NCBI GenBank assembly: GCA_965214705.1
Contig: OZ243972.1
Span: 4,032,001-4,096,000, forward strand
Length of the DNA stretch: 64,000 nt
Origin: Alphaproteobacteria bacterium
GTDB lineage: Bacteria > Pseudomonadota > Alphaproteobacteria > UBA828
Direction: 5' to 3'
Shown here: one piece after another, positions 250 to 62,883 of the stretch
Position numbering within the stretch: the first letter of the stretch is position 1
Layout: every line of letters begins with the position of its first letter
Translations under genes and position numbers: made by a program
The notes under the pieces: generated by a model
Seen by the model: only the letters and a program-made list of their open reading frames with translations
Database searches by the model: none
Told to the model about the DNA's origin: nothing

Positions 250-1560
250 ATGACGCGGACAAGTTCCTTGAGCGAAAGACCCGGACATCATGGCCCGAGG
301 AGACTCATCGACTGGATCAACCCGGCGGGTGACAGGAAGGTCCACTCACTGGTGGACAAGGTGTACAAGCGGAAGAACCTTGAGGTGGCCTGGGAAAAGG
401 TGAAGCGCAACCGGGGTGCCGGTGGCGTGGACGGAGAGGATTTAGCGGCGTTCGAGGCATCGCTGGATGCAAATCTCGATCGCCTGCACCGGGAGTTGCG
501 GGACGGTGAGTATCACCCGCAGCCGGTTCTCCAATGCCTGATCCCCAAGGCGGGCCAGCCGGGGAAGTTCCGCCCGCTCGGCATCCCGACAATCTACGAC
601 CGGGTGTGCCAGCAGGCGCTGCTGAACCGGCTGGAACCGATCTTCGAGCCGGTGTTCGACGATGCCAACTACGGGTACCGGCAAGGAAGGTCTGCCCATG
701 GAGCGTTACGCAAGATATGGAGGGAACTGGACGAGGGCAACGAGTGGGTTCTCGATGCGGATTTGAAAGACTTTTTCGGGTCCGTGGACCACGAAAAGCT
801 CCTCGAACTCGTCAACCAGCGAGTCTCGGATGGCCGGGTATTAGGTCTGCTCAGGCAGATGCTCACGGCCGGGGTGGTGGCCGACGGTAAGAGGCTGCCG
901 ACCGAACAGGGCACTCCGCAGGGCGGCATCGTTTCACCGCTGCTCAGCAATATCTTGCTGACCCCGTTCGATTGGGAAATGCGTCGTCGCGGCTATCGAC
1001 TAACGCGATACGCCGATGATTGGCTGATCACGTGCCGCACACGCGGGGAAGCCCGCGCAGCACTGGAGACGGCCAGGCGGATTCTGGCAAAGCTGGGTGT
1101 GTCCCTCAACGCCGGGAAGACCCGCATTGTCCATGTCAGGCACGGGTTTGAGTTCCTCGGCTACAAGATCAAGCAGGGCGAGCGGCCTCTCCGGCTGTCG
1201 TCCTCCAAGATCAAGAGCGGGGTTCGCGGGGGAGCGCGCTACGCGGTTCCGCGTGAGAAATCCATCCGGCACTTCAAGGACCAGATTCGCCAGCGTACCC
1301 GGCGCAAGGCTCCTGTCAGCACGCAGGAGCTGATTGACGAGATCAACCCGATCATTCGGGGATGGGGCCAATACTATTGCAAGGCCCACGTCCGCGGGCT
1401 CTTCCACCAGCTTGACGGCTGGATCGTGCGGCGGCTCTGGTCGCATCGTCGCAAGCGCTGGCGCAACGCTGGCTGGAAACAGTTGCCGGAGCGCAAGCTG
1501 ATCGACGAATACGGGCTTGTTCGCCTGATCTCACTGGTTCCGTCCTTGAACCTTCGTTGA
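250..1560 (+). CDS. ltrA: group II intron reverse transcriptase/maturase, no endonuclease domain
   Basis: GAGGVDG, RPLGIPT, GTPQGG, RYADD, FEFLGY and domain X (INPIIRGWGQYY). Confidence 0.95.
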   Translation: MTRTSSLSERPGHHGPRRLIDWINPAGDRKVHSLVDKVYKRKNLEVAWEKVKRNRGAGGVDGEDLAAFEASLDANLDRLHRELRDGEYHPQPVLQCLIPKAGQPGKFRPLGIPTIYDRVCQQALLNRLEPIFEPVFDDANYGYRQGRSAHGALRKIWRELDEGNEWVLDADLKDFFGSVDHEKLLELVNQRVSDGRVLGLLRQMLTAGVVADGKRLPTEQGTPQGGIVSPLLSNILLTPFDWEMRRRGYRLTRYADDWLITCRTRGEARAALETARRILAKLGVSLNAGKTRIVHVRHGFEFLGYKIKQGERPLRLSSSKIKSGVRGGARYAVPREKSIRHFKDQIRQRTRRKAPVSTQELIDEINPIIRGWGQYYCKAHVRGLFHQLDGWIVRRLWSHRRKRWRNAGWKQLPERKLIDEYGLVRLISLVPSLNLR

Positions 1561-6273: not shown

Positions 6274-6669
6274 TATCGATCTCCCTGGATCGCGACGGCG
6301 CGCCGCCGGACCGATCCGGCGACGGTCCGTCGCAGGGGTCGATGCTAACCACTGGTGATCGGGAGGCTGCTGGGGATCCGCCACCCGACGGGCGGAGCGC
6401 CACTGACGCAACCGGGAAGCGAACGCACAGAACAAACGGCACCCGCGACGCCTCGGAAATGAATGAACTCTACGCCGCTAACTCCGCGTAGCGGCTTCGT
6501 TCAAGAGCCGCCGGCCCCATGGCGCATGAGCGAGGCCTGCCGTCGTCGGCTCTCCGGCCCGCAACGGTTGGACGGAGAAATCTTGGTTGGCATTACGGTG
6601 TTCTGCCTTGGTGCCGGCACGCCGGCGTGCTGCCCGACCGTTCCAGGCACGTGATCGGAGACCGGCAGC

Positions 6670-11669: not shown

Positions 11670-13076
11670 CGTCACGATAGCTTTCTCCCGCAAGGCGGTC
11701 TCGCTGGGCGTTCATCCTTTCGTGCTCCTGATTGCAGACATGTGTCGCCCTGTCAGCCCCTGCAAGTCGCGTGTTTCAAAGAACTACGCGCCGGTTGGAT
11801 TAGGAAAGCTCCTTCGTATTTCAATGTATTTCTACCTGTCAAGACGTGCATTCAATCAGGCGGCTAAGGGCCGTATTTCAATGTACTTCGCTCGTTCCAA
11901 CGCCAGCGCCTGTGGATTCGCTACAATTCTGTCCTCTCGTGTCCGGCCATGACAGGCTATGTCGCCTCAAAATAGCTTTGCGCCTTCAGGCGCGTGGGGT
12001 GTGAGAACCAAAGCGCGCCAAGCGTCGAGCGCGACACAGGTTCGATATAGAAGCGGTCAGGCCCCAGCCTGCGGTGACAGCTGCTTTCGGCGTTTGCGGC
12101 GATTGAGCGAGAGGTTCGGACTGCGATCTCCAGGCGCGTTCCACGTTGTCGTCCCGACAACCGAGGTAACAAAGTGGGGCGCAGGGTGCAAGCTCGCGGC
12201 AGCAGTCTTCACACATCGCGCACCGGATTCGGTGCGCGGGTTCGCTCGCGGTACGGTTCGTTACCTCAGCGCACGATGGCGGTCGCACATGTTCCAAAGA
12301 ACAGCGGCGTGACTATCACATGTTCCCGCAGCGCAGACATGGGCGGTGAACGCGCTGATGTTCAAGGCGTTAGCAGTCCGTTTCACTTGTTACCGCAAGT
12401 GCAGAAGCAGCGACGCATTCGTTACCGCGGTGTCATCGTTGCGGCTGCGCCGAACGGATGTCGCCGCGACGATCGGCGGTGCGAGCGGAGCCGCGGGCAG
12501 TTGTGCGAAGCGCGCTGCCGGACGCGCCGTCAACTGCATCGGCGCGGGAGCCGGCACCGGTGTCGGCCGGACCGCGGGCAGCGCTGCGGATGCCGGTGCG
12601 CGGCGAAGCCGCGACCGGCGAGGCTCGGGTGCATGGCGAGGATGTTGGGCGGCACGCGCGGCCGACGAATCCAGCGACGGCGCGCATGCGCCGAGCCGGA
12701 CGCAGCTGCGGAGAGAAACACGGCAGGTGCAGCGGGCGCGAGTGCCGCCTGCGCGAAGCGCGGCGCCATCGGGCATGAAACGCGCACACGGGTGGCCGGC
12801 ACGGATGCCGGCGGTCGCCTGCACCGGACTGCACACATGATGCCCGTCGTGAAGCACGAAGAAAGCGGCCGGTGCCGTGAGGCACCGACCGCTGTTTCTG
12901 TCGCAGGCGCCGATCAGACCGGTACGACCATAATGCCGAGAAGGTTGTAATGCCGAGCGGGTCGCGGGGATCGGCTTAGTTCTGCCGTTTTCCTGCCGAT
13001 TCGCTCGGCATTAATTGTTGGGGTCGGTTCTCCGACAAAGTCGTCCTCCCTTTCAATCGGATGGAGGACGACAAGA

Positions 13077-14651
13077 ATGTCTTCGACACCCAACCGCGGG
13101 TCGTTGCTGGAGACCACGGCGCTGGCCGGCTTCGATCCAATCATTCTTGAGTTCATCGACGACCTTCGCCATCGAGGTGGAGCTGCCGAGGGTCAGCTCC
13201 CCAAGTACCGGTATGCCGCTCGTCACTTCCTGATCTGGCTTAAGCTCGCCGGCATCGAGCTCAAGATGGTCGACGGCACGGCCATCGAGCACTTTCTGCA
13301 GCACGATTGCCGTTGTGCCGAATCGTCCGCGCCCGTCCGGCTTCGCCGCTGGCGCAAGTGCCGCACGTCGTCCAGAGTCATGACGTTCATCCGCTTCCTT
13401 GAGCGGACGGGGCGCATCGAGACTCCCGGCGAGCTCGACGACAATTTCAGGCTGCTGGATGCGTTCCTCGCGAGCTTGCGCCGCGATGGCTACGCGACCG
13501 CGACCATTGAGCTGTATGGCCACGGATGCGGCGGTCTCATTGTCTGGCTCCACCTCTCACGGCTTCGCCTGTGCGATCTGTCGCCGGAGGTAATCGCACG
13601 TTTCCGGCGCAGGCAGATCGTCTGCTCGATCCCCGGGGTGTTTTGCGGCCAGGAATCGCGGTGCCCCGCAACCGCATACGAGACCGAGCTGCGCGGCTTC
13701 CTGAAGCATCTCGTCTCGATCGGGCGGATCGAACCGTTCGAACAGAACCCGGACGAGAAGACCCCGCCGCCCCCTCGCCTCGAGAGATTCGGCGACTGGC
13801 TTGAACGCCATCGTGCGATCAGCCCGGAGAGCATACGCCAGTATGTCCGATTGATCGCAGAGATGCTGCCTGACCTTGGGGACGATCCTGGGGCCTATGA
13901 CGCGGCGCTGATCCGGCGGGCGTTGTTCGACCGTATGGAGCCCTGGTCGCAGGGCTACGCCCGAAGGCTGACCACCGCGATGCGCATGTATCTGCGGTTC
14001 CTGGTGTCGGAAGCCAGCATCGCGGCGAGACTGGTCGAGGCCGTGCCGACGGTGCCGCAGTGGCGATTGTCCACCTTGCCACGATACATCTCGGCCGACG
14101 ATGTCGAGCGCGCCATCGCATCCTGCGGCGACGACCCCAAGGGCGTGCGCGATCGGGCGATCCTGCTGCTTCTGGCACGGCTGGCCCTGCGGGCCGGGGA
14201 TATCGTCGCTCTGCGCCTCGGCGATATCGACTGGGACAGGGCCGAGATCCGTGTCTCGGGAAAATCACGGCGGGAGACGGCTCTGCCTCTGCCCCAGGAC
14301 GTCGGCGATGCGCTCCACGCCTATATCGCGACGGCGCGGCCAAGGGTGGATGAGGAGAAGGTGTTCTTCTGTGTGAACGCGCCCTGTCGGCCGTTCACCG
14401 ACTCGAGTGTCGTCAGCGCCGTGGCGGAATGGGCTCTCGACCGCGCCGGGGTCAAGACCTTCGGCGGCCGCGGCGCGCATACATTCCGCCATTCCCAGGC
14501 GACAGCGCTGCTCAGATCCGGAGCAACGCTCCACGTCATCCAATCGCTGCTCCGGCACGCTTCCCCGAGCGCCACCATGATCTATGCGAAGACCGACGCG
14601 GTCATGTTGCAGGAGGTTGCCCAACCCTGGATCGGGGGGATCGATCGATGA
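13077..14651 (+). CDS. RIT recombinase A
   Basis: RDRAILLLLARLALRAGD, HTFRHS, LRH...TMIYAK. Confidence 0.9.
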   Translation: MSSTPNRGSLLETTALAGFDPIILEFIDDLRHRGGAAEGQLPKYRYAARHFLIWLKLAGIELKMVDGTAIEHFLQHDCRCAESSAPVRLRRWRKCRTSSRVMTFIRFLERTGRIETPGELDDNFRLLDAFLASLRRDGYATATIELYGHGCGGLIVWLHLSRLRLCDLSPEVIARFRRRQIVCSIPGVFCGQESRCPATAYETELRGFLKHLVSIGRIEPFEQNPDEKTPPPPRLERFGDWLERHRAISPESIRQYVRLIAEMLPDLGDDPGAYDAALIRRALFDRMEPWSQGYARRLTTAMRMYLRFLVSEASIAARLVEAVPTVPQWRLSTLPRYISADDVERAIASCGDDPKGVRDRAILLLLARLALRAGDIVALRLGDIDWDRAEIRVSGKSRRETALPLPQDVGDALHAYIATARPRVDEEKVFFCVNAPCRPFTDSSVVSAVAEWALDRAGVKTFGGRGAHTFRHSQATALLRSGATLHVIQSLLRHASPSATMIYAKTDAVMLQEVAQPWIGGIDR

Positions 14652-15580
14652 CGATGACAATCAGCGAACAGGTCTCGCGCTTCGTCGCGATGAAACAGAA
14701 GCTCGGCTACCGGTTCGGGCGGTGCGAAGGGATGCTGCACAGCTTCGCCAGGTTCGCCGAGGACCGTGATGAAACATTCATCCATTCCACGACCGCCATC
14801 GAGTGGGCATCGTCGTCGAGAGCGGCATCGCAGTCCGAAGGAGTCAGAAGGCTGCGCGCGGTACATGACTTTGCCAGCTGGCTGCATGCCGAGGATGCGC
14901 GTCACGAAGTACCGCCGCGCGATGCGCTGGGCCGCCCGAACAAGCAGAGGCCGCGACCCTGCCTGATATCGGTCCCGGACATCGGGAAACTTCTGATGGC
15001 GGCGCTGTCCATGGGGCCTGCCGGCAGCATCGCCCCGCTGACCTGGCACTACCTGTTCGGGCTCATCGCCGCGACCGGCCTGCGCATCGGCGAAGCGCTC
15101 GCATTGACGATGGATGACATCACCGCTGACGGCCTCGTCATCCGAGACACGAAGTTCGGCAAGACGAGGATGGTCGCGCTGCACCCGACCACCTGGGATG
15201 CGCTGAACTGCTACCTGGGGTCACGGCTCAAGGAGAAAACGCCAGACACGCATCTCTTCGTGATCGCCACCGGCCTATGTCCGAGTAGAGGCTATGCATC
15301 GGCCGTCTTCCGCAGACTCGCGGAGCAAGCCGGAATCCGCGAACCCGGCGCGGCGCGAGGACCCACACCGCACTCGCTGCGGCATTCCTTCGCTGTGCGG
15401 TCACTTGAGAGCCTTGCTCCCGATATCGATCCGAGCCGCCATATGCTGGCGCTTGCGACCTACCTCGGCCATGTCAACGTCTCAAGCACCTACTGGTATC
15501 TGGAATCGACCCCTGCCCTCCTGCGCGGCATTGCCGAAGCCGCGGAAGAGGCTCACGCGAATGGGGGTTCCGATGACTGA
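14648..15580 (+). CDS. RIT recombinase B
   Basis: TGLRIGE, TKFGKTR, HSLRHSF, YLGH...TYWYL; ATGA overlap with A. Confidence 0.9.
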   Translation: MTMTISEQVSRFVAMKQKLGYRFGRCEGMLHSFARFAEDRDETFIHSTTAIEWASSSRAASQSEGVRRLRAVHDFASWLHAEDARHEVPPRDALGRPNKQRPRPCLISVPDIGKLLMAALSMGPAGSIAPLTWHYLFGLIAATGLRIGEALALTMDDITADGLVIRDTKFGKTRMVALHPTTWDALNCYLGSRLKEKTPDTHLFVIATGLCPSRGYASAVFRRLAEQAGIREPGAARGPTPHSLRHSFAVRSLESLAPDIDPSRHMLALATYLGHVNVSSTYWYLESTPALLRGIAEAAEEAHANGGSDD

Positions 15581-16574
15581 TCTTGCCCCCCACCTGACGA
15601 GCTTCCTGGAGGAGCACCTTCCTAACGAGCGGCGCTTCAGCCGCCACACCGTGCAGAGCTATAAGGAGTGCTTCCGCCTCCTCGTCATCTACGCGGCGGA
15701 AAAGACCAGGGTGCGCCCCTGCATCCTGAAGATCGAGCACCTGACGGTGGCTCTACTGCTGGCCTTCCTCGAGTCTCTGGAGAAGGATCGCAACAACAGC
15801 ATCGGCACCCGCAACAATCGCCTCGCCGCCATCAAGTCCTTCTTCCGATACCTGGAATACCGTGTCCCGGGTTGTCTCGACCTCGCCTTGCAGGTGCGCG
15901 CCATCCCGCAGAAGCGCACCGACAAACCCCTGATCGACTGGCTCGACCGGATGGAGATGCAGGCGATCCTGGATGCGCCGGATACCGCGACGGTCGCAGG
16001 CCTGCGCGACCGCGCCATGCTGCATCTATGCTACGCGGCCGGGCTCCGGGTGTCGGAACTGACCAGGCTCACTCTCGACAGCCTGTCGAGTCCCCATCTT
16101 GAGACTGTCCGCATCCTGGGCAAGGGGCGGCGCGAGCGCGAACTGCCGCTCTGGAAGGAAACGAGGGCCGTCCTCAATGAGTGGCTCGACGTCCGCCCGC
16201 CGGTCAACAATCGCTATCTCTTCCTCAGCGCCCGCGGGCGGGCGTTGAGCACGGACGGCTTCGCTTACATCCTCGACCAGCATGTCGCCACCGCGGCCTG
16301 CAAGGTCCCGTCCATCAAGAGCAAGCGGGTGACCCCGCACGTGCTCCGTCATTCGTCGGCAATGACCGTTCTGGATGCCACACGGGGGGACATCCGGAAG
16401 GTCTCGATCTGGCTCGGTCACGCCGACGTCAAGATTACCGAGGTGTACCTTCGTTCGAGCGCGGCCGAGAAGTTGAAAATCCTTGGGGCCAACACGCCGC
16501 CTTCCATCCGCCGCGGGACCTTCAACGGTGTGAAGGACAGCTTGATGATGGTTCTCGGCGGAAACTGGCCGTGA
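15573..16574 (+). CDS. RIT recombinase C
   Basis: GLRVSE, GKGRRER, PHVLRHS, WLGH...TEVY. Confidence 0.9.
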   Translation: MTDLAPHLTSFLEEHLPNERRFSRHTVQSYKECFRLLVIYAAEKTRVRPCILKIEHLTVALLLAFLESLEKDRNNSIGTRNNRLAAIKSFFRYLEYRVPGCLDLALQVRAIPQKRTDKPLIDWLDRMEMQAILDAPDTATVAGLRDRAMLHLCYAAGLRVSELTRLTLDSLSSPHLETVRILGKGRRERELPLWKETRAVLNEWLDVRPPVNNRYLFLSARGRALSTDGFAYILDQHVATAACKVPSIKSKRVTPHVLRHSSAMTVLDATRGDIRKVSIWLGHADVKITEVYLRSSAAEKLKILGANTPPSIRRGTFNGVKDSLMMVLGGNWP

Positions 16575-16667
16575 CAATTAATGCCGAGCGAATCGGCAGG
16601 AAAACGGCAGAACTAAGCCGATCCCAGCGACCCGCTCGGCATTACAACCTTCTCGGCATTATGCAGA

Positions 16668-16687
16668 TTATGCCGAGCTCGGCATAA
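16668..16687. repeat. 20-bp perfect palindrome TTATGCCGAGCTCGGCATAA beside RIT1
   Basis: Read directly; 6 bp (TGCAGA) from the RIT end. Confidence 0.95.
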
Positions 16688-17293
16688 CGTGCATCACGGG
16701 AATGCCCAAGCGCTTCGCCTTGTCGATGAGGTTGCCGGTGATGCCGCTGCCGGGGAAAGCGATGACGCCCTTGGGCAGCAGGTTGAGCAGCTCGTCGTTG
16801 CGGCGGAAGGGTGCGGCCTTGCCGTGGGCGTTCCAGTCGGGCCTGCAGACGACCTGGTTGATGCCCCTGGCTTCGGCCCAGCTCGCCGCGATCTTCTCAA
16901 CGCCGGGACCGCCGCCGTGCAGCAGGACCATGTCGCCGTACTTCGCGTGCGCCATGTCGAGCGTGCTCCAGACCGCATCGGCATCGGCGACGGTCTTGCC
17001 GCCGGTGATGGCGACCAGGGTGCCCTCGGGCAGGTGCGCCCTTGTCTCGCGGTCCTTGCGTGCGCGGCGGAAGTCGCGTGCGTCGATGGCGGCAGACGTC
17101 AGCGTCCCGGTGCGGCTCGTGTGCGAGCCGTGGCGCGGGCGCCATGTGTCGCCGGTCTCGACGCGGTAGGCATCGGCAGCGAGGTCGCGCATCTTCTCGA
17201 AGGCGTCGCGACGGTCGCCCAGGCTCTGCGCCCGGTCCGTGAGGGTCTGCAGCTCCCATGCCTTGACCTCCGATCCGTCCTGCGCCTTCTCAA

Positions 17294-19453
17294 CCCAAGT
17301 TGGCACTTTTCCGCTGCCTGTGTTCCCTATTGGTTTGATTCAACGCGATATTTTTCTCGGTCGATTCCAACATGGCCCCACATTTTGTGAGATTCTGTCA
17401 GCTCATCAGACGGGTCCTCGTGCGGTGGATGGCGGGGTCCACGCCCGCCGCCGAGGAGATTGCGGCAACCTCGGCGGCCGGGCGCGTGTCCTGGCGGTTG
17501 ACGATCAAGGTGCCGTCGGTCTGGCGCAGGCGCGTGGTGATCCGCACCCAGGTCCGCATGCTCTCGCGGATCGACGCCCAGCACTTGTGGATGCCGCGCG
17601 CGGCCAGCCGGGTACGGATCAGATGCACGGCGTGGTAGGCCAGCACGGCGATCAGCAGGTGGGCCGCGATGCGCCGGTCGAGCTGGTGCCAGATCGGGCG
17701 AAGGCCGAGCTCGGATTTCAGGCTCCGGAATGTCGCCTCGATATCCGTGATCCGCCAGTACGTCCGCAGGACCGTCTCGATGTCCCAGTCGACGTGGCTG
17801 GTGCGCAGCACATAGGCACCGGCGCCCTCATCGGCCTCGTCGTATCGCGGCCTGCGCTTGAAGCGCACGGCGGTGGCATTGGGGCCGGTTTTCGCCCTCT
17901 CGACCGTGATCTCGTAGTGCCTGGCGACGGCGGAGAAGCGCTGCTTGAGGCGGCCTATGCTCTCCAGCACCTTGTCGTAGCGCTTGAGGCGGCCCTTGAC
18001 CGGGAGGCCGCCGTGGAGCCTTTCCAGCGCCGCCTCGAAGCGGTTCCGCCTCAGGCCGATGATCGCGTTCTCGGCCTTCTTCTTGCCCTCGCTGACGACG
18101 TAGAGCCGCGCCTCGCCGTCCTCGCTGGCAAGCCGCCAGGCCCGCACCTCGTGGCGCGCGCTGGTGATCAGCAGGGCCTCGGGTCCGCCCTCGGGCGGCG
18201 CAGGCCTGGCACCGCGGCTGACCGCGATCCAGTCGTAGCCCTGCTCGCCCAGCCACGCGATGTTTTTCTCGGTGGCGATGCCCGCGTCCATGACCACCGT
18301 GGGCTTCGGCGCCGTGCCGCCGCACACCGCCTCGAGCCGCGCCAGCGCCTCGTGCAGCGTGCCCGGCTCGCTCACGTTGCCCGGCAGGATCTCGCAACTG
18401 CGCGGGAAGCCCGCGCCGTCGAGCGCCAGCGCCAGCGTGATGAGGGGACAGTCGTCGCGCTTCTGCTTGGAGCGCCCGAACCTGGGAAGCTCGCCGCCCG
18501 TGTGGCCGTGGTAGTGGACGTTGGTGAGATCGTAGAAGGCGATCGTCTCGGGCAGGTCGAGCAGTGCGCGCTCACGGTTGAACAGCTCCCGCTGGATGGC
18601 GGCGCGGTGGCGCCAGAGCAGGTCGCCGATGCGGTAGAGCGTCTTGCGCCGCAGCGCCTTGCGGTCGCCCTCCAGGCCCAGGAGCTCGGCGGCCGCGCTG
18701 TCGTGGCGGAGCCAGCGGCTGGTATCACGCTCGCTGGCGGGATGGACCATCCTGGCGACGATCAGCGCGCTGGCGATGCGCCCGTCGCGGCCCTTGATGT
18801 CGAGGCCGTGGAGGATTTCGGCGAAGCCGAGGGCGTCGAGGGCCTTGAGGCACAGGCGCTCGCAGCCGACCGTGCGCGGGTTCTCGTGCTCCAGGGTATC
18901 GAGGTCGACGGTGGCGATGTCGGGCTTGCGCGCCTCTTCCTGCATCGCCTCGACGCGGAACCCCCTGGCCCTGAGCTTGGCGACGATGTCCTCGGCTGCG
19001 GCCCGCACATCCGCCTCGCCCTCGAACAGCGGCGGCTTGCCGTGAAGCAGCGCCTCGGCGAGTTCGGTGACGGCCTTCCACTTCTCGCGCGGCACCGGAT
19101 AGTCGGTGCCGAGATTGAGCAGCGTCCTGTGGCGCACCTTGTCGCCGACGCGCTGGGCGAGCACGAGGCGATGGCTTCGGACCGGCTGGCCGGCCTTGTC
19201 GGTGTGTGTCCTGGTTGCCTTGATGTACATGGCGGCGCCGTTTCTGCGATGCCTGTTTCGCATACACGGCGTTCGCGGCATCTGGCAAGAGGGATATCGA
19301 CTCAACTCCAAAGTCCTGGCCCCACAATTGGCTTCCAGGACCACGAATGGCAAATGTGGGTCTCAGGTGTCCTCCAACCCCAACATCTAGTGGTTCAGCG
19401 CCGCAAAACTGGCTCGAACAGGCTCGGCTGGTCGGAAAAAGTGCCAACTTGGG
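17294..19453 (-). mobile_element. IS1634-family element #2
   Basis: 17-bp TIR CCCAAGTTGGCACTTTT; TCAA duplication (17290-17293, 19454-19457). Confidence 0.95.
17398..19230 (-). CDS. IS1634-family transposase
   Basis: FYDLTN, VVMDAG, EATFRSLKSELGLRPIWH. Confidence 0.92.
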   Translation of the reverse strand: MYIKATRTHTDKAGQPVRSHRLVLAQRVGDKVRHRTLLNLGTDYPVPREKWKAVTELAEALLHGKPPLFEGEADVRAAAEDIVAKLRARGFRVEAMQEEARKPDIATVDLDTLEHENPRTVGCERLCLKALDALGFAEILHGLDIKGRDGRIASALIVARMVHPASERDTSRWLRHDSAAAELLGLEGDRKALRRKTLYRIGDLLWRHRAAIQRELFNRERALLDLPETIAFYDLTNVHYHGHTGGELPRFGRSKQKRDDCPLITLALALDGAGFPRSCEILPGNVSEPGTLHEALARLEAVCGGTAPKPTVVMDAGIATEKNIAWLGEQGYDWIAVSRGARPAPPEGGPEALLITSARHEVRAWRLASEDGEARLYVVSEGKKKAENAIIGLRRNRFEAALERLHGGLPVKGRLKRYDKVLESIGRLKQRFSAVARHYEITVERAKTGPNATAVRFKRRPRYDEADEGAGAYVLRTSHVDWDIETVLRTYWRITDIEATFRSLKSELGLRPIWHQLDRRIAAHLLIAVLAYHAVHLIRTRLAARGIHKCWASIRESMRTWVRITTRLRQTDGTLIVNRQDTRPAAEVAAISSAAGVDPAIHRTRTRLMS

Positions 19454-53262: not shown

Positions 53263-53751
53263 TCACCGGCACAAGCGGGAGCACGCGCAGTCCATGGGCG
53301 TGCCGCTGCAACGGCCGGCGACGGCGCGCGAGCGCCGAGCCAGACGCGGTGACGCAGGACGGGCAAGCCGGAGAGCAGGACACACGCATCGAGCCCGGCG
53401 ATGGCGCGTAGCGTCGAGCCTGATGCACGGCGGCGGAGGGAGGGGGGAAGCACGGTCGCTGCAGCGAGCGGGAGCGGCGCCGGCGCGAAGCGCGGCGACG
53501 CCGGCGTTCGAGCGCGCACTCGGATTGGCGGTGCGCGATCCGACGGGCGGGCGCACAGGCCGACGCTCGTGATGCCCGTCGTGAAACACGACGAAAGCGG
53601 CCGATGCCTTGAGGCACCGGCCGCTTCGTCGAGGCGCGCGCTGCTTACGCGGCTTTCATTATCATAATGCCGAGAAGGTTGTAATGCCGAGCGGGTCGCT
53701 GGGATCGGCTTAGTTCTGCCGTTTTCCTGCCGATTCGCTCGGCATTAATTG

Positions 53752-54753
53752 TCACGGCCAGTTTCCGCCGAGAACCATCATCAAGCTGTCCTTCACACCG
53801 TTGAAGGTCCCGCGGCGGATGGAAGGCGGCGTGTTGGCCCCAAGGATTTTCAACTTCTCGGCCGCGCTCGAACGAAGGTACACCTCGGTAATCTTGACGT
53901 CGGCGTGACCGAGCCAGATCGAGACCTTCCGGATGTCCCCCCGTGTGGCATCCAGAACGGTCATTGCCGACGAATGACGGAGCACGTGCGGGGTCACCCG
54001 CTTGCTCTTGATGGACGGGACCTTGCAGGCCGCGGTGGCGACATGCTGGTCGAGGATGTAAGCGAAGCCGTCCGTGCTCAACGCCCGCCCGCGGGCGCTG
54101 AGGAAGAGATAGCGATTGTTGACCGGCGGGCGGACGTCGAGCCACTCATTGAGGACGGCCCTCGTTTCCTTCCAGAGCGGCAGTTCGCGCTCGCGCCGCC
54201 CCTTGCCCAGGATGCGGACAGTCTCAAGATGGGGACTCGACAGGCTGTCGAGAGTGAGCCTGGTCAGTTCCGACACCCGGAGCCCGGCCGCGTAGCATAG
54301 ATGCAGCATGGCGCGGTCGCGCAGGCCTGCGACCGTCGCGGTATCCGGCGCATCCAGGATCGCCTGCATCTCCATCCGGTCGAGCCAGTCGATCAGGGGT
54401 TTGTCGGTGCGCTTCTGCGGGATGGCGCGCACCTGCAAGGCGAGGTCGAGACAACCCGGGACACGGTATTCCAGGTATCGGAAGAAGGACTTGATGGCGG
54501 CGAGGCGATTGTTGCGGGTGCCGATGCTGTTGTTGCGATCCTTCTCCAGAGACTCGAGGAAGGCCAGCAGTAGAGCCACCGTCAGGTGCTCGATCTTCAG
54601 GATGCAGGGGCGCACCCTGGTCTTTTCCGCCGCGTAGATGACGAGGAGGCGGAAGCACTCCTTATAGCTCTGCACGGTGTGGCGGCTGAAGCGCCGCTCG
54701 TTAGGAAGGTGCTCCTCCAGGAAGCTCGTCAGGTGGGGGGCAAGATCAGTCAT
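53752..54753 (-). CDS. RIT recombinase C
   Basis: Identical to 15573-16574. Confidence 0.9.
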   Translation of the reverse strand: MTDLAPHLTSFLEEHLPNERRFSRHTVQSYKECFRLLVIYAAEKTRVRPCILKIEHLTVALLLAFLESLEKDRNNSIGTRNNRLAAIKSFFRYLEYRVPGCLDLALQVRAIPQKRTDKPLIDWLDRMEMQAILDAPDTATVAGLRDRAMLHLCYAAGLRVSELTRLTLDSLSSPHLETVRILGKGRRERELPLWKETRAVLNEWLDVRPPVNNRYLFLSARGRALSTDGFAYILDQHVATAACKVPSIKSKRVTPHVLRHSSAMTVLDATRGDIRKVSIWLGHADVKITEVYLRSSAAEKLKILGANTPPSIRRGTFNGVKDSLMMVLGGNWP

Positions 54754-55678
54754 CGGAACCCCCATTCGCGTGAGCCTCTTCCGCGGCTTCGGCAATGCCG
54801 CGCAGGAGGGCAGGGGTCGATTCCAGATACCAGTAGGTGCTTGAGACGTTGACATGGCCGAGGTAGGTCGCAAGCGCCAGCATATGGCGGCTCGGATCGA
54901 TATCGGGAGCAAGGCTCTCAAGTGACCGCACAGCGAAGGAATGCCGCAGCGAGTGCGGTGTGGGTCCTCGCGCCGCGCCGGGTTCGCGGATTCCGGCTTG
55001 CTCCGCGAGTCTGCGGAAGACGGCCGATGCATAGCCTCTACTCGGACATAGGCCGGTGGCGATCACGAAGAGATGCGTGTCTGGCGTTTTCTCCTTGAGC
55101 CGTGACCCCAGGTAGCAGTTCAGCGCATCCCAGGTGGTCGGGTGCAGCGCGACCATCCTCGTCTTGCCGAACTTCGTGTCTCGGATGACGAGGCCGTCAG
55201 CGGTGATGTCATCCATCGTCAATGCGAGCGCTTCGCCGATGCGCAGGCCGGTCGCGGCGATGAGCCCGAACAGGTAGTGCCAGGTCAGCGGGGCGATGCT
55301 GCCGGCAGGCCCCATGGACAGCGCCGCCATCAGAAGTTTCCCGATGTCCGGGACCGATATCAGGCAGGGTCGCGGCCTCTGCTTGTTCGGGCGGCCCAGC
55401 GCATCGCGCGGCGGTACTTCGTGACGCGCATCCTCGGCATGCAGCCAGCTGGCAAAGTCATGTACCGCGCGCAGCCTTCTGACTCCTTCGGACTGCGATG
55501 CCGCTCTCGACGACGATGCCCACTCGATGGCGGTCGTGGAATGGATGAATGTTTCATCACGGTCCTCGGCGAACCTGGCGAAGCTGTGCAGCATCCCTTC
55601 GCACCGCCCGAACCGGTAGCCGAGCTTCTGTTTCATCGCGACGAAGCGCGAGACCTGTTCGCTGATTGTCATCGTCAT
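54746..55678 (-). CDS. RIT recombinase B
   Basis: Identical to 14648-15580. Confidence 0.9.
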   Translation of the reverse strand: MTMTISEQVSRFVAMKQKLGYRFGRCEGMLHSFARFAEDRDETFIHSTTAIEWASSSRAASQSEGVRRLRAVHDFASWLHAEDARHEVPPRDALGRPNKQRPRPCLISVPDIGKLLMAALSMGPAGSIAPLTWHYLFGLIAATGLRIGEALALTMDDITADGLVIRDTKFGKTRMVALHPTTWDALNCYLGSRLKEKTPDTHLFVIATGLCPSRGYASAVFRRLAEQAGIREPGAARGPTPHSLRHSFAVRSLESLAPDIDPSRHMLALATYLGHVNVSSTYWYLESTPALLRGIAEAAEEAHANGGSDD

Positions 55679-57249
55679 CGATCGATCCCCCCGATCCAGG
55701 GTTGGGCAACCTCCTGCAACATGACCGCGTCGGTCTTCGCATAGATCATGGTGGCGCTCGGGGAAGCGTGCCGGAGCAGCGATTGGATGACGTGGAGCGT
55801 TGCTCCGGATCTGAGCAGCGCTGTCGCCTGGGAATGGCGGAATGTATGCGCGCCGCGGCCGCCGAAGGTCTTGACCCCGGCGCGGTCGAGAGCCCATTCC
55901 GCCACGGCGCTGACGACACTCGAGTCGGTGAACGGCCGACAGGGCGCGTTCACACAGAAGAACACCTTCTCCTCATCCACCCTTGGCCGCGCCGTCGCGA
56001 TATAGGCGTGGAGCGCATCGCCGACGTCCTGGGGCAGAGGCAGAGCCGTCTCCCGCCGTGATTTTCCCGAGACACGGATCTCGGCCCTGTCCCAGTCGAT
56101 ATCGCCGAGGCGCAGAGCGACGATATCCCCGGCCCGCAGGGCCAGCCGTGCCAGAAGCAGCAGGATCGCCCGATCGCGCACGCCCTTGGGGTCGTCGCCG
56201 CAGGATGCGATGGCGCGCTCGACATCGTCGGCCGAGATGTATCGTGGCAAGGTGGACAATCGCCACTGCGGCACCGTCGGCACGGCCTCGACCAGTCTCG
56301 CCGCGATGCTGGCTTCCGACACCAGGAACCGCAGATACATGCGCATCGCGGTGGTCAGCCTTCGGGCGTAGCCCTGCGACCAGGGCTCCATACGGTCGAA
56401 CAACGCCCGCCGGATCAGCGCCGCGTCATAGGCCCCAGGATCGTCCCCAAGGTCAGGCAGCATCTCTGCGATCAATCGGACATACTGGCGTATGCTCTCC
56501 GGGCTGATCGCACGATGGCGTTCAAGCCAGTCGCCGAATCTCTCGAGGCGAGGGGGCGGCGGGGTCTTCTCGTCCGGGTTCTGTTCGAACGGTTCGATCC
56601 GCCCGATCGAGACGAGATGCTTCAGGAAGCCGCGCAGCTCGGTCTCGTATGCGGTTGCGGGGCACCGCGATTCCTGGCCGCAAAACACCCCGGGGATCGA
56701 GCAGACGATCTGCCTGCGCCGGAAACGTGCGATTACCTCCGGCGACAGATCGCACAGGCGAAGCCGTGAGAGGTGGAGCCAGACAATGAGACCGCCGCAT
56801 CCGTGGCCATACAGCTCAATGGTCGCGGTCGCGTAGCCATCGCGGCGCAAGCTCGCGAGGAACGCATCCAGCAGCCTGAAATTGTCGTCGAGCTCGCCGG
56901 GAGTCTCGATGCGCCCCGTCCGCTCAAGGAAGCGGATGAACGTCATGACTCTGGACGACGTGCGGCACTTGCGCCAGCGGCGAAGCCGGACGGGCGCGGA
57001 CGATTCGGCACAACGGCAATCGTGCTGCAGAAAGTGCTCGATGGCCGTGCCGTCGACCATCTTGAGCTCGATGCCGGCGAGCTTAAGCCAGATCAGGAAG
57101 TGACGAGCGGCATACCGGTACTTGGGGAGCTGACCCTCGGCAGCTCCACCTCGATGGCGAAGGTCGTCGATGAACTCAAGAATGATTGGATCGAAGCCGG
57201 CCAGCGCCGTGGTCTCCAGCAACGACCCGCGGTTGGGTGTCGAAGACAT
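55675..57249 (-). CDS. RIT recombinase A
   Basis: Identical to 13077-14651. Confidence 0.9.
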   Translation of the reverse strand: MSSTPNRGSLLETTALAGFDPIILEFIDDLRHRGGAAEGQLPKYRYAARHFLIWLKLAGIELKMVDGTAIEHFLQHDCRCAESSAPVRLRRWRKCRTSSRVMTFIRFLERTGRIETPGELDDNFRLLDAFLASLRRDGYATATIELYGHGCGGLIVWLHLSRLRLCDLSPEVIARFRRRQIVCSIPGVFCGQESRCPATAYETELRGFLKHLVSIGRIEPFEQNPDEKTPPPPRLERFGDWLERHRAISPESIRQYVRLIAEMLPDLGDDPGAYDAALIRRALFDRMEPWSQGYARRLTTAMRMYLRFLVSEASIAARLVEAVPTVPQWRLSTLPRYISADDVERAIASCGDDPKGVRDRAILLLLARLALRAGDIVALRLGDIDWDRAEIRVSGKSRRETALPLPQDVGDALHAYIATARPRVDEEKVFFCVNAPCRPFTDSSVVSAVAEWALDRAGVKTFGGRGAHTFRHSQATALLRSGATLHVIQSLLRHASPSATMIYAKTDAVMLQEVAQPWIGGIDR

Positions 57250-57394
57250 TCTTGTCGTCCTCCATCCGATTGAAAGGGAGGACGACTTTGTCGGAGAACC
57301 GACCCCAACAATTAATGCCGAGCGAATCGGCAGGAAAACGGCAGAACTAAGCCGATCCCCGCGACCCGCTCGGCATTACAACCTTCTCGGCATT

Positions 57395-57428
57395 ATGCAC
57401 GTTATGCCGAGCTCGGCATAACGTGCAT
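57395..57428. repeat. 34-bp perfect palindrome (core 57402-57421) beside RIT2
   Basis: ATGCACGTTATGCCGAG|CTCGGCATAACGTGCAT. Confidence 0.95.
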
Positions 57429-58325
57429 CACGGGAATGCCCAGCTGCTTCGCCTTGTCGACGAGGTTGCCGGTGATGCCGGAGCCGGGGAAGGCGATGAT
57501 GCCCTTGGGCAGCAGGTTGAGCAGCTCGTCGTTGCGGCGGAAGGGCGCGGCCTTGCCGTGAGCGCTCCAGTCGGGACGGCAGATCACCTGGTTGACGCCT
57601 CTGGCTTCCGCCCAGCTCGCGGCGATCTTCTCGACGCCGGGACCGCCACCATGCAGCAGCACCATGTCGCCGTACTTCGCGTGCGCCATGTCGAGCGTGC
57701 TCCAGATCGCGTCGGCATCGCTGACGGTCTTGCCGCCGGTGATCGCGACCAGGGTGCCCTCGGGCAGATGCGCCCTCGTCTCGCGGTCCTTGCGGGCGCG
57801 GCGGAAGTCGCGTGCGTCAATGGCGGCGGAGGTGAGCTGTCCGGTCTGGCTCGTGTGCGAGCCGTGCCGCGGGCGCCAGACCTCGCCGGTCTCGACGCGG
57901 TAGGCGTCGGCGGCGAGGTCGCGGAGCTTCTCGAAGGCGTCGCGCCTGTCGCCGAGGTTCTGCGCGCGGTCAGTCATCGTCTGCAACTCCCACGCCTTCA
58001 CCTCCGATCCGTCCTGCGCCTTCTCGAGGTCGCGCATCTCGGGCGCGATGCGGTCGACGGCGCGGTCCAGCCTCTGCACCTGGCTGTGCAGCATGTTGGT
58101 GAAGCCCCACATGAGCGGCTCGCGCTCGTCGGCCATCTGCGTGCCGTCGACGGTGATGCCGTCGACGATGACGCGGATGGCTTCGTTCAGCGCATCGATG
58201 GCATCGTCCTCGTCCCAGACGACCCTGCTGTCGAGCTCGCCGCGCTCGGGCGCTGCGCCGTAGAGGGCCATGCTGTCGCAAACGGTTGCAGTGGAAGAAG
58301 CAGTAGCGCTGGTTGTGTCGATCAT
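57402..58325 (-). CDS. DUF2493 (YspA/SLOG-like) domain protein; last codons supplied by the palindrome
   Basis: VAITGG, LLHGG, AAPFRRN, AFPGSGITGNL; CAGGAG RBS. Confidence 0.85.
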   Translation of the reverse strand: MIDTTSATASSTATVCDSMALYGAAPERGELDSRVVWDEDDAIDALNEAIRVIVDGITVDGTQMADEREPLMWGFTNMLHSQVQRLDRAVDRIAPEMRDLEKAQDGSEVKAWELQTMTDRAQNLGDRRDAFEKLRDLAADAYRVETGEVWRPRHGSHTSQTGQLTSAAIDARDFRRARKDRETRAHLPEGTLVAITGGKTVSDADAIWSTLDMAHAKYGDMVLLHGGGPGVEKIAASWAEARGVNQVICRPDWSAHGKAAPFRRNDELLNLLPKGIIAFPGSGITGNLVDKAKQLGIPVMHVMPSSA

Positions 58326-58629
58326 GACGATCTCCTGTTGGTTCAACCTCCGGGACCCTGTGCCCCGTCGTGATGTCCTCTGTGATTCACGCGCGCGCAG
58401 GGGCAGCACCTGGCCCTGGGAAGTCTTAGGCGGGTTTAGGTGCGGAAGTTCGGCGATGTTGGTGCGGAAGATGGCGCCGCCGTGCCGGTGGGAACGGTGC
58501 TCCGCAGCAAATCCATTCCAGTGGTCATTACGGCGCCGGGCCGGGCGGGCCCGCTTGGGCCTGCCCGGCGTCTAGGCGCCGCGACGAATGGTTCCGCGAA
58601 TGGATTTGATGCGGTGCAGCGTGACGCGG

Positions 58630-58803: not shown

Positions 58804-59144
58804 CTCCGACATCACGACGGACGGACCCCTTTTCTGTTTCCTGCAAGCGGTGTGGTACCGCCGCAGCGATGAAAGACGCGGTGCCGGCCGCGGGCCGGGC
58901 AACGGGATCGAGGGCGAGCCGCTCCCGCCGATGACACCGCCGGTGGCGCTCGTCACCGCTCACAGCATCGGGTGGGTGTCGAGGAGGTGGCGGGCGACCT
59001 CGCGGACGCGATGGCGCTCGTGCACCCTGACGGGGCCGCGGGGGTCTTCGCTGAGATGGCATTTCGCGTCGAACAATATGTTGAGCAGCGACGCGAAGGC
59101 CCCGGCAGCTCTGGCTGCAGGGGCCTAAACGCTCAACATAGAGT

Positions 59145-62622: not shown

Positions 62623-62758
62623 CGTGATGTCCTCCTTTCGTGACAACGCGAAAGAAGCACATCACAAGACTATGTTGAGCGTTTAGGCCCCTGCAGCCAG
62701 AGCTGCCGGGGCCTTCGCGTCGCTGCTCAACATATTGTTCGACGCGAAATGCCATCTT

Positions 62759-62778
62759 CTATGTTGAGCTCAACATAG
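62759..62778. repeat. 20-bp perfect palindrome CTATGTTGAGCTCAACATAG beside RIT3
   Basis: Read directly. Confidence 0.95.
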
Positions 62779-62861
62779 GAGATGCACCACATAGAACACC
62801 GCGCCGGGGTTGAGGATGTCGTCCTGGCGGAAGACGTCCCCGACGTAGTCGCCGTGCTGGT

Positions 62862-62883
62862 ATTACGTTGAGCTCAACGTAAT
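62862..62883. repeat. 22-bp perfect palindrome ATTACGTTGAGCTCAACGTAAT
   Basis: Read directly. Confidence 0.95.

What the first reader, a model, noticed from the sequence alone, without database searches (positions are those of the whole stretch)
16650..16695. Every RIT has a cognate 20-bp GAGCTC-centred palindrome exactly 6 bp outside one end
Seen: RIT1 and RIT2 (end motif TAATGCCGAG) have TTATGCCGAGCTCGGCATAA at 16668 and 57402; RIT3 (motif TATGTTGAG) has CTATGTTGAGCTCAACATAG at 62759. The palindrome co-varies with the family motif. It is not host sequence: the target gene reads in frame to a stop only when RIT plus palindrome are removed (DUF2493 ends ...MHVPV* or MHVKAA*). The inner 6-bp spacer is the reverse complement of the outer flank at 6/6 (RIT2), 5/6 (RIT3) and 4/6 (RIT1). 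Inference: the palindrome is two back-to-back recombinase half-sites, acting as a pre-installed landing pad or as the footprint of a hairpin (protelomerase-like) intermediate. The RIT mechanism is poorly understood; adjacent palindromes may have been noted before, which I cannot check.
Basis: partly seen in the sequence, partly recalled or inferred. Interest (0 to 1): 0.85.

Follow-up and report, generated by a model that had tools for sequence, protein, structure and literature searches.

The report
Palindrome that travels with RIT transposons
Each three-recombinase (RIT) transposon here carries, six bases beyond one tip, a 20-base palindrome that is missing from empty target sites and looks like a working end-piece of the element, which gives a testable model for how these poorly understood elements move.

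Summary
All three RITs in the window have a 20-bp palindrome exactly 6 bp outside one tip. It is not host DNA: 0 of 70 RIT-free alleles carry it.

It is general. Of 46 RITs with clear ends, from several phyla, 40 have a palindrome with at least 9 of 10 arm pairs. Random windows gave 24 of 2000.

The layout is host–X6–[S'> <S']–rcX6–[RIT]–X6–host.
- The palindrome always lies on the same side of a given target.
- The RIT body points either way (18 versus 17).
- The three hexamers are target-type hexamers. They are carried from site to site, and the middle one is always reverse-complemented.

The half-sites resemble Xer/dif arms that face outward toward the hexamers.

Best reading: the palindrome is the terminal part of the mobile unit. 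Once the unit is excised, each RIT tip gets a partner arm across a 6-bp crossover region. That gives two opposed complete cores, and either one can integrate. This model reproduces RIT1 exactly from an R_c-like donor.

The "landing pad" and "hairpin footprint" readings are not supported. The mechanism is inferred, not shown. I found no description in the searchable literature, and Ricker 2013 could not be read.

The parts
12925..12930 (.). RIT1 far-side hexamer. It reads cgacca on +, which is TGGTCG in target orientation, and is close to the native target hexamer of this locus type.
   Evidence: RIT-free contigs join 12921/12917 to 16692 with TGATCG-type sequence.
12931..16661 (+). RIT1, 3731 bp. 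About 90-bp TIRs lie at both ends. Maximal ORFs: ritA 13077-14651, ritB 14429-15580, ritC 15294-16574. The palindrome lies beyond the ritC end.
16662..16667 (.). RIT1 inner (mid) hexamer tgcaga. This is the native hexamer of the commonest DUF2493 target type, present here in inverted orientation.
16668..16687 (.). The 20-bp palindrome TTATGCCGAG|CTCGGCATAA, two outward-facing half-sites S'. This is the feature in the finding.
16688..16693 (.). RIT1 outer hexamer cgtgca, which is TGCACG in gene orientation. It is element-carried, not native.
16668..17306 (-). Target gene (DUF2493 / Pfam YAcAr). Its last codons and its stop now lie inside the palindrome.
53659..53664 (.). RIT2 far-side hexamer ttatca, which is TGATAA in gene orientation.
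53665..57395 (-). RIT2, 3731 bp. Its proteins are identical to those of RIT1. The palindrome lies beyond the ritA end.
57396..57427 (.). RIT2 inner hexamer tgcacg (57396-57401), palindrome (57402-57421) and outer hexamer cgtgca (57422-57427). These lie inside the 34-bp perfect palindrome at 57395-57428.
57402..58409 (-). Second DUF2493/YAcAr target gene, a paralog hit at the same codon.
59053..59058 (.). RIT3 far-side hexamer gagatg.
59059..62752 (-). RIT3, 3694 bp, a different family. ORFs: ritC 59145-60146, ritB 60143-61060, ritA 61051-62646. The palindrome lies beyond the ritA end.
62753..62784 (.). RIT3 inner hexamer catctt (62753-62758), palindrome CTATGTTGAG|CTCAACATAG (62759-62778) and outer hexamer gagatg (62779-62784).
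   Evidence: A paralog without RIT reads through this site (C2 copy).
62857..62882 (.). Outer hexamer ctggta plus palindrome TTACGTTGAG|CTCAACGTAA of a fourth RIT (R_d), which lies beyond the window end.
62883..64000 (-). Start of a 2604-bp IS91-family element (Y2 transposase plus its own integrase). It is inserted exactly between that palindrome and its inner hexamer.
937..942 (+). Unoccupied target hexamer CCGCTG of another RIT family of this genome. It lies in a group II intron RT gene (250-1560).

Best explanation
The palindrome is the end-piece of the transposing unit, not flanking DNA. It is two 10-bp recombinase-binding arms (S', consensus T-W-A-T-G-N-N-G-A-G) placed tail to tail, so each arm faces outward onto a 6-bp crossover hexamer. 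This mirrors the arm-6 bp-arm layout of Xer/dif sites.

In the chromosome the order is host-X6-S'><S'-rcX6-[S>..ritABC..<S]-X6-host. The inner half-site, the inner hexamer and the adjacent RIT tip already form one complete core.

Inferred mechanism:
1. Tyrosine-recombinase exchange between the outer core (host arm-X6-S') and the far core (S-X6-host arm) releases palindrome + hexamer + RIT as one circle.
2. In that circle both RIT tips flank the palindrome. This gives two complete cores in opposite orientation.
3. Either core can recombine with a target hexamer. The palindrome therefore always ends on the same side of the target, while the RIT body lands in either orientation.
4. The exchange tolerates hexamer mismatch. 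One junction then keeps the target hexamer and the other receives an element-carried one, and the inner hexamer stays as a reverse-complemented record of an earlier target.

What is shown and what is inferred:
- Shown by sequence comparison: absence from empty sites, the layout, the fixed side with a free body orientation, and the hexamer rules.
- Inferred: which proteins bind, the circle, and which core is used.
For: 1. Not host DNA. The palindrome is in 0 of 23 RIT-free DUF2493 paralogs. It is in 0 of 2 RIT-free contigs of the RIT1 locus type (joints 12921>16692 and 12917>16692). It is in 0 of 41 RIT-free RT genes, 18 of them identical to the occupied flank: GTTTCA CCGCTG CTCAGC becomes GTTTCA CCGCTG-pal-CAGCGG-RIT-CCGCTG CTCAGC. 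It is in 0 of 4 empty alleles in another order.

2. It travels with the element. Identical RIT copies in different paralogous targets carry identical palindromes.

3. It is general. Of 46 RITs, 32 have 10/10 arm pairs and 8 have 9/10. Random windows gave 6 and 18 of 2000. It is also present in 4 of 10 more distant plasmid RITs.

4. Hexamers. The outer hexamer equals the far one 6/6 in 19 of 43. The inner one is the reverse complement of the outer 6/6 in 19 of 43.

5. One family in 73 metagenome contigs. The palindrome is on the same host side in 73 of 73. The body is ritA-first in 18 and ritC-first in 17 of 35 classifiable. The outer hexamer is target-type in 61 of 73. The inner one is target-type only when reverse-complemented (58 of 73, against 3 of 73 as written). 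The same foreign hexamers (GCCGTG, GCCATT, GCGATC, TTCCTG) turn up at the outer and far positions, and reverse-complemented at the inner position.

6. One-step predictions fit. RIT1 (TGCACG / TCTGCA / TGGTCG, body inverted) is exactly what an R_c-type donor (TGCACG / CGTGCA / TGCAGA) gives on integrating through the internal core. L031 and L032, in the same genome and in paralogous targets, are the two alternative products of one circle type.

7. Arm layout. The half-sites and tips share the inner TTATG-type pentamer, as in the dif tables of PMC2731167.

8. A separate IS91-family element that has its own integrase sits exactly at the arm/hexamer boundary in 4 RIT-palindrome junctions of this genome.
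Against: - No excised form has been seen, and no experiment exists.
- 3 of 46 RITs have no palindrome within 50 bp (L013, L054, L030; in L030 an IS91-like element abuts the tip).
- Of 10 plasmid RITs, 4 could not be resolved, 1 has only a degenerate palindrome (7/10) and 1 is abutted by an IS91-family element.
- 40 of the 80 fetched loci were not analysed, because the contigs were short or my windows found no TIR.
- Host arms next to the hexamers show little likeness to S or S', so target recognition is unexplained.
- The model gives no role to the inner TIR repeats (S2, S3) or to the need for three recombinases.
- The 50:50 body orientation could come from inversion in place rather than from a choice of core at integration.
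- The outer=far hexamer duplication alone would also fit a staggered-cut transposase.
- Ricker et al. 2013 could not be read and may already describe part of this.
Confidence: 0.6

Rival explanations
1. Flip-flop site only. The palindrome is the partner site for inverting the RIT body in place (recombination between the inner core and the far core). It is not needed for transposition, and it was acquired once per lineage.
For: The body orientation is about 50:50 while the palindrome side is fixed. The inner core is complete and inverted relative to the far core.
Against: Every independent insertion into an empty paralog brings the palindrome. RIT1's hexamers (native far hexamer; inner hexamer from another target type) fit a transposition through the inner core, not an inversion at that locus. 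Inversion may still happen as well.
Confidence: 0.12
2. Hairpin footprint. The palindrome is made at each insertion by fold-back synthesis or by a telomere-resolvase-like hairpin step centred on GAGCTC.
For: The palindrome is often perfect. Nielsen et al. (PMC5737581, passages read) saw RIT DNA enriched after exonuclease treatment but no circular junction by read mapping, and they proposed hairpin intermediates.
Against: The half-site differs from the RIT tip consistently within a family. The inner hexamer is an exact complement of the outer one in only 13 of 73. The conserved end of each half-site faces away from the centre. Hexamer shuffling places the exchange at the hexamers. Under the main model a circle junction has no new short sequence, which would also explain the failed read mapping.
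Confidence: 0.08
3. Landing pad. A small palindromic element is installed first, and RITs then insert 6 bp from it.
For: The inner core is a complete site, and another element (the IS91-family element with an integrase) does use that boundary.
Against: No palindrome-only allele appears among 70 RIT-free alleles. No solo palindrome appears in 10 palindrome-first hits. A 26-bp unit has no plausible way to move alone.
Confidence: 0.05
4. Host Xer sites. The arms are dif-like sites used by the host XerC/XerD, as in elements that exploit Xer.
For: The arm-6 bp-arm layout and the inner TTATG-type pentamer resemble dif.
Against: Arm sequences differ strongly between RIT families living in one genome (TAATGCCGAG, TATGGGAAC, TTCTTTGCAG) and co-vary with the element. 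The element itself encodes three Xer-related recombinases.
Confidence: 0.05
5. Native terminator hairpin or chance palindrome at the 3' end of the target gene.
For: The palindrome sits at a gene end and holds the stop codon.
Against: It is absent from all 23 RIT-free paralogs. It is found inside coding regions of other targets. Shuffle expectations are 0.09 and 0.00.
Confidence: 0.01

Closest known systems
RIT (recombinase in trio) elements (Van Houdt 2009/2012; Ricker 2013)
   Same: Three adjacent, overlapping tyrosine recombinase genes ritA-ritB-ritC. The unit is about 3.5-3.7 kb with inverted repeats at the ends. Identical copies occur in one genome. Insertions lie in genes of islands and plasmids (PMC3414803 section 11, read whole; PMC2864759 passage).
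   Different: [quoted passage not shown] None of these texts describes any of the following: a palindrome on one side only, 6 bp out; its absence from empty sites; a fixed side with a free body orientation; or heritable hexamers. Ricker 2013 is not held, and supplements are closed.
Tn554-related elements and strand-biased circularizing integrative elements (SE) / GInts
   Same: Transposons with several tyrosine recombinases. Six base pairs from the donor flank are carried to the new site (PMC10214605 passages). The RIT hexamers behave the same way.
   Different: Those elements need a fourth protein (TnpC/Srap/GinD). RITs have only three ORFs between their TIRs. The passages I read report no palindromic end-piece and no two-orientation insertion at one site.
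Xer/dif sites, and elements that integrate at them
   Same: Two inverted arms around a 6-bp central region, with the most conserved bases next to the centre (PMC2731167). The RIT tip-hexamer-S' cores have that layout, and RitA/B/C are grouped with Xer-like 'simple' recombinases (PMC8138268 passage).
   Different: The arms are element-specific and co-vary with the RIT family. The recombinases are encoded by the element. In the palindrome itself the two arms are tail to tail, so the palindrome alone is not a core.
   Same: In a single strand of the excised unit, TIR-hexamer-palindrome-hexamer-TIR would fold into one long hairpin that presents a duplex arm-6 bp-arm core. This is how attC and the CTX site work, as I recall them.
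   Different: Nothing here shows a single-stranded intermediate. Hexamers that would pair in the stem often mismatch (exact complement in 13 of 73). The TIR arms are not always perfect beyond about 30 nt.
Telomere resolvase (protelomerase) sites
   Same: A perfect palindrome acted on by a tyrosine-recombinase-like enzyme.
   Different: The crossover evidence lies at the flanking hexamers, not at the palindrome centre. No hairpin ends have been observed.

Membership tests
RIT element | Three adjacent same-strand tyrosine recombinase genes | tested here: met
   A Phage_integrase domain is present in all 6 ORFs tested, from RIT1 and RIT3. RIT2 proteins are 100% identical to those of RIT1.
RIT element | Short overlaps (4-8 bp) between the three ORFs | tested here: inconclusive
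   In RIT3, ritB and ritC overlap by 4 bp (60143-60146). The other overlaps come from maximal ORFs whose true starts were not fixed.
RIT element | Unit of about 3.5 kb bounded by inverted repeats, with identical copies in one genome | tested here: met
   Sizes are 3694-3731 bp with TIRs of 86-92 bp. There are three copies of the RIT1 type.
RIT element | RitA/RitB/RitC subfamily assignment by profile | not tested
   Only pairwise likeness is available: 42-58% identity to the other trios of this genome and 495 RitB relatives.
Xer/dif-type core site | Two inverted arms separated by exactly 6 bp, with conserved bases next to the centre | tested here: met
   A 6-bp register is supported by hexamer identities in 43 elements. 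The logos are T-W-A-T-G..G-A-G for S' and for most tips. The layout was compared with PMC2731167.
Xer/dif-type core site | Binding and cleavage by the recombinases at the arm/centre boundaries | not testable with these tools
   Needs footprinting or cleavage assays.
Tn554 / SE-type transposon | 6 bp of donor flank carried to the new site | tested here: met
   Foreign hexamers recur at the outer, far and (reverse-complemented) inner positions.
Tn554 / SE-type transposon | Extra small protein (TnpC/Srap/GinD) needed for recombination | tested here: not met
   Only the three recombinase ORFs lie between the TIRs. About 60-150 bp remain at each end. So this works like those elements in one respect but is not a member.
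Telomere resolvase site | Cleavage 6 bp apart around the palindrome axis, giving hairpin ends | not testable with these tools
   The indirect evidence points elsewhere: exchange at the flanking hexamers.
Folded single-strand site (attC-like) | Recombination of a folded single strand, resolved by replication | not testable with these tools
   The sequence could fold this way by construction (TIRs plus palindrome). No data bear on strandedness.

The most novel reading that the evidence does not exclude
RITs move as a copied-out single strand (or an extruded cruciform). In it, TIR-hexamer-palindrome-hexamer-TIR folds into one hairpin of about 115 bp, whose tip is the palindrome centre and whose stem shows a complete dif-like core (tip arm, 6 bp, S' arm). 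One strand exchange with the target, followed by replication, installs the unit. This is the route I recall for integron cassettes and CTX phage. On this reading the palindrome exists because two identical TIR tips cannot form a core on their own. The two heritable hexamers would then act as a 6-bp address label that biases where the element lands next.
Probability: 0.25. Interest if true: 0.9.

Novelty: new variant of a known kind. Interest (0 to 1): 0.74.

Why it matters
RITs are widespread in bacterial chromosomes, islands and plasmids. According to a 2023 review-type table (PMC10214605), their movement has never been reproduced and their target specificity is untested.

This finding redraws the element's boundary: the unit is RIT + 6 bp + a 20-bp palindrome. 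It also identifies the likely crossover hexamers and gives rules that predict real insertions.

It explains three earlier puzzles:
- why published ends looked variable;
- why RITs sit in either orientation at one site;
- why circle junctions were not found by short-read mapping, since a junction flanked by identical TIRs contains no new short sequence.

It makes the mechanism directly testable with a mini-element with and without the palindrome. It also gives annotators a simple mark for intact RITs and their true insertion sites. The carried hexamers are a readable record of where an element was before.

Tried and rejected
Native terminator or host palindrome. I first thought the 34-bp palindrome might be the gene's own hairpin. 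The empty alleles rejected this.

Group II intron. The 2.6-kb insert between palindrome and RIT looked like an intron that homes next to hairpins. There was no Rfam hit at gathering score, and the ORFs are an IS91-family Y2 transposase plus an integrase.

Fold-back copying of the tip. Rejected.

Circle junction. A metagenome scan for tip-6-palindrome-6-tip found 0 contigs, while palindrome-6-tip found 73. A transient, 230-bp palindromic junction is unlikely to be assembled, so this says nothing either way.

Sequencing runs. All useful runs were kept as contigs, so rare excision products could not be sought. Only the two joined contigs were used.

Repeat-collapsed contigs of RITs end at tip + 6 bp. 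They do not show whether the palindrome belongs to the repeat.

TIR perfection as a sign of a hairpin stem. 13 of 43 elements have 10 or more ungapped mismatches beyond about 30 nt, so this is not a usable argument.

Reciprocal products. I looked for RITs with a palindrome on both sides and found 0 of 46. Only L054 has weakly inverted flanks, 22/40. L107 lies between 752-bp inverted host repeats. The idea that palindrome-less RITs arise by recombination between inverted copies remains untested.

The palindrome at C3:2305631 is a remnant. Its IS91-like neighbour is cut by another IS with more than 60 copies.

Literature. Searches found 7, 534 (25 listed), 1,912 (20 listed) and 11 papers. The RIT-relevant papers among them were opened as passages or one section. 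None describes this layout. PMC12306157 uses 'RIT' for terminators. Ricker 2013 is not held. Supplements were not opened.

Full report
**1. The observation.**
The window holds three recombinase trios. Each ORF has a Phage_integrase domain. Each trio is bounded by 88-90-bp terminal inverted repeats.
- TTATGCCGAGCTCGGCATAA lies at 16668-16687 and at 57402-57421.
- CTATGTTGAGCTCAACATAG lies at 62759-62778.
- Shuffles predict 0.09 and 0.00 such cores.

The register was fixed by the repeated 10-nt arm. In that register the elements are 12931-16661, 53665-57395 and 59059-62752, and each palindrome starts exactly 6 bp beyond a tip.

The DUF2493/YAcAr ORF does end, inside the palindrome (...PVMHVMPSSA*).

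**2. The palindrome is not host DNA.**
- This genome has 26 DUF2493 gene ends. Three carry the RIT1-type element plus the palindrome. The other 23 read straight to a stop, for example ...ATG CAG ATA AAG GCC GCG TAA, with no palindrome.
- Contigs from two other sequencing runs join window 12921 or 12917 to 16692. They skip RIT1 and the palindrome together and read ...PVMIVTAV* or ...PVMIAS*.
- A second RIT family of this genome sits in group II intron RT genes. Of 44 RT copies, 3 are occupied and 41 are empty, and none of the 41 has the palindrome.
- Eighteen of those empties are identical to one occupied flank. That gives a clean before and after: GTTTCA CCGCTG CTCAGC against GTTTCA CCGCTG-palindrome-CAGCGG-RIT-CCGCTG CTCAGC. 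One such empty site lies in the window at 937-942.
- In another bacterial order, 4 of 4 RIT-free alleles of a helicase-like target gene lack the palindrome.

In total, 0 of 70 empty alleles carry it.

**3. The layout.**
Read with the palindrome on the left, every case has this order: host, outer hexamer, 20-bp palindrome, inner hexamer, RIT, far hexamer, host.

Across 43 elements:

| Comparison | 6/6 | 5/6 |
|---|---|---|
| Outer hexamer = far hexamer | 19 | 8 |
| Inner hexamer = reverse complement of outer | 19 | 10 |

So the target hexamer is present three times: direct at both outer borders and inverted in the middle. L016 reads CTACCG/CGGTAG/CTACCG, and L008 reads CTTCCT/AGGAAG/CTTCCT.

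**4. Generality.**
A RitB profile search fetched the best 80 of 495 confirmed relatives. By record title these come from Alpha-, Beta- and Gammaproteobacteria, Acidobacteria groups, Gemmatimonadota, Binatia and Thermodesulfobacteriota.
- Forty loci had clear TIRs and at least 70 bp of flank on both sides. The other 40 were short contigs, or my windows found no TIR.
- I added six elements of the window's genome, giving 46. The best palindrome within about 50 bp of a tip had 10/10 arm pairs in 32, 9/10 in 8, 8/10 in 3 and 7 or fewer in 3.
- Random windows gave 6, 18 and 188 of 2000 for the first three classes.
- The centre is GAGCTC in most, but also GTGCAC, AACGTT, GACGTC and CGCGCG.
- The palindrome lies beyond the ritA end in 20 and beyond the ritC end in 23.

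I also picked ten more distant plasmid RITs (RitB 34-46% identical) from a spread list of 30 out of 265 records:
- the layout is present in 4, including Ralstonia solanacearum and Phaeobacter;
- the palindrome is degenerate in 1;
- an IS91-family element abuts the tip in 1;
- 4 are unresolved.

In the window's genome four further RITs have their palindrome 2.6 kb away, because an IS91-family element sits between them.

Searching for the palindrome first gave 10 occurrences in 8 genomes. Five of those genomes had been chosen because they hold RITs, and the other 3 came from 300 further genomes. Nine occurrences abut a RIT tip at 6 bp and one ends a contig.

**5. Fixed side, free orientation.**
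- At the DUF2493 site the palindrome is next to the gene body in 3 of 3. RIT1 is inverted relative to RIT2 and R_c.
- In 73 metagenome contigs of one family, the palindrome is next to the same side of the host gene (...PRE + hexamer) in 73 of 73.
- In that set the first gene after the tip is ritA in 18 and ritC in 17 of 35 classifiable contigs.

**6. The hexamers are inherited.**
In that same family:
- the outer hexamer is of the target type TAYRTN in 61 of 73;
- the inner hexamer is of that type in 58 of 73 when reverse-complemented, but in only 3 of 73 as written;
- outer and inner are exact complements in only 13 of 73.

So the inner hexamer is not copied from the outer one at insertion. 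It is a target-type hexamer from an earlier site, kept in inverted orientation.

Foreign hexamers (GCCGTG, GCCATT, GCGATC, TTCCTG) occur at the outer position, at the far position and, reverse-complemented, at the inner position. They match the native hexamers of variant target alleles (...REAV...). When one outer border has a foreign hexamer, the other border has the native one (for example L116, L181, L055, L039).

Two natural experiments fit a one-step rule.
- R_c reads TGCACG / CGTGCA / TGCAGA with ritA first. Suppose its unit leaves with the far hexamer at the new junction and enters a TGGTCG-type site through the inner core. The product should then be TGCACG / TCTGCA / TGGTCG with ritC first. 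That is RIT1.
- L032 reads CGGCTT / TGTTCG / CGGCTT. L031 reads CGAACA / AAGCCG / CGGCTT. They lie in paralogous targets of one genome with opposite body orientation. They are the two products expected from one circle type.

**7. What the half-sites are.**
In 27 non-redundant elements the palindrome half-site has the consensus T-W-A-T-G-N-N-G-A-G, and most RIT tips begin the same way. The half-site matches a repeat in its own TIR better than repeats in other families' TIRs (8.59 against 7.35 of 10; 0 of 5000 permutations reached this).

The conserved TWATG end lies next to the hexamer. Proteobacterial dif sites are 11-nt arms around a 6-nt centre, and their best conserved bases are ...ATAA and TTAT... 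next to that centre (PMC2731167, passages and table rows).

So tip-hexamer-S' has the layout of a Xer-type core. The palindrome is two such arms tail to tail, and each arm serves the hexamer on its own side.

In some families the tip arm (for example TTCTTTGCAG) is quite unlike S'. The two arms of a core are therefore different, as they are in dif.

**8. Model.**
Shown by sequence comparison:
- the palindrome arrives with the RIT;
- the layout;
- the fixed side with free orientation;
- the hexamer rules.

Inferred:
1. Rit recombinases bind S and S' and exchange strands across the hexamers.
2. Exchange between the outer core and the far core frees palindrome + inner hexamer + RIT as a circle and restores the empty site.
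3. In the circle the palindrome is flanked by both tips. This gives two complete, opposed cores, and either one can integrate.
4. The exchange tolerates hexamer mismatch, so one border takes the element's hexamer and the other keeps the target's.

Two identical TIR tips cannot supply two different arms, and the palindrome supplies the missing partner for each. In such a circle the TIRs, hexamers and palindrome form a palindrome of about 230 bp. A bolder variant follows from that: a folded single strand or cruciform that presents one duplex core. It is not excluded, and nothing here tests it.

**9. Fit with earlier reports.**
- Nielsen et al. found RIT DNA enriched in exonuclease-treated DNA, could not define a circular junction by paired-read mapping, and proposed hairpins (PMC5737581 passages). 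Under the present model a junction flanked by identical TIRs holds no new short sequence, so that failure is expected.
- The SE paper states that no RIT transposition has been reproduced. It also states that SE and Tn554 carry 6 bp from the donor (PMC10214605 passages). The RIT hexamers behave alike.

**10. Limits.**
- Everything is comparative. No intermediate was seen.
- Three of 46 elements lack the palindrome, and several plasmid cases are unresolved.
- The sample is the top of one RitB search.
- Host arms are not obviously like S or S'.
- The inner TIR repeats and the need for three enzymes are unexplained.
- Inversion in place could add to the orientation mix.

Noticed in passing
window 62883-64000 and beyond (L001:284-2890); 10 sites listed: A 2604-bp IS91-family element (Y2 transposase, zinc-binding domain, plus its own tyrosine integrase). 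Ten insertion sites are listed in this genome. Each lies right after an ...AC(A/G)TA-type or ...GATA-type arm, at the arm/hexamer boundary. Four are at RIT-palindrome junctions, and most of the others are at similar sites that may belong to another recombinase element family. Similar elements abut RIT tips in L030 and L106.
   Followed up: partly
window 250-1560 (RT gene); target hexamer at 937-942: One RIT family of this genome inserts inside group II intron reverse transcriptase genes, at the conserved ...SP(L/M)L codons. The genome holds 44 such RT copies, 3 of them hit.
   Followed up: yes
whole genome G000: The genome is very rich in repeats. It has about 11 RIT loci of at least 5 families, 26 DUF2493 gene ends, 44 RT genes and a 2.67-kb IS with more than 60 copies. 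The window itself repeats several ORF sets (for example 5395-6435, 29917-30957, 49581-50621).
   Followed up: no
C1:1986299, C1:3503382, C2:498021, C3:1790896 flanks: An imperfect back-to-back pair, TTATGTGCAG/TTGAACATAA, lies next to a long hairpin-ended sequence. Several copies are within a few kb of weaker recombinase hits (29-34% to RitA/RitC). This may be the same end-piece principle in another recombinase element family.
   Followed up: no
L055, L064, L066, L181 (far junction); R_b in C1:2625242-2625247: When the far border takes a foreign hexamer, the host reading frame gains two codons (for example ...REYV + AI + VDYL). A RIT visit can therefore leave a 6-bp change in the target gene.
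   Followed up: partly
L107 (Agrobacterium plasmid), L101 (Aromatoleum plasmid 2), L054: These RITs have no adjacent palindrome but sit between inverted duplicates of host sequence (752 bp, 719 bp and a weak 22/40). They may be products of recombination between inverted copies.
   Followed up: partly
window 16668-16700 and 57402-57440: Insertion at the last codons of DUF2493 swaps only the final four or five residues (...MQ(I/M)KAA* to ...MHVMPSSA*). The palindrome supplies a new stop, so the host gene probably survives.
   Followed up: no
L035 family against L063/L066: RITs with the same tip (TTCTTTGCAG...) carry two quite different palindromes, TAATGTTGAG... and TTATCCGGAG.... The second resembles the innermost TIR repeat. 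Palindromes can apparently be exchanged or remodelled within a family.
   Followed up: no
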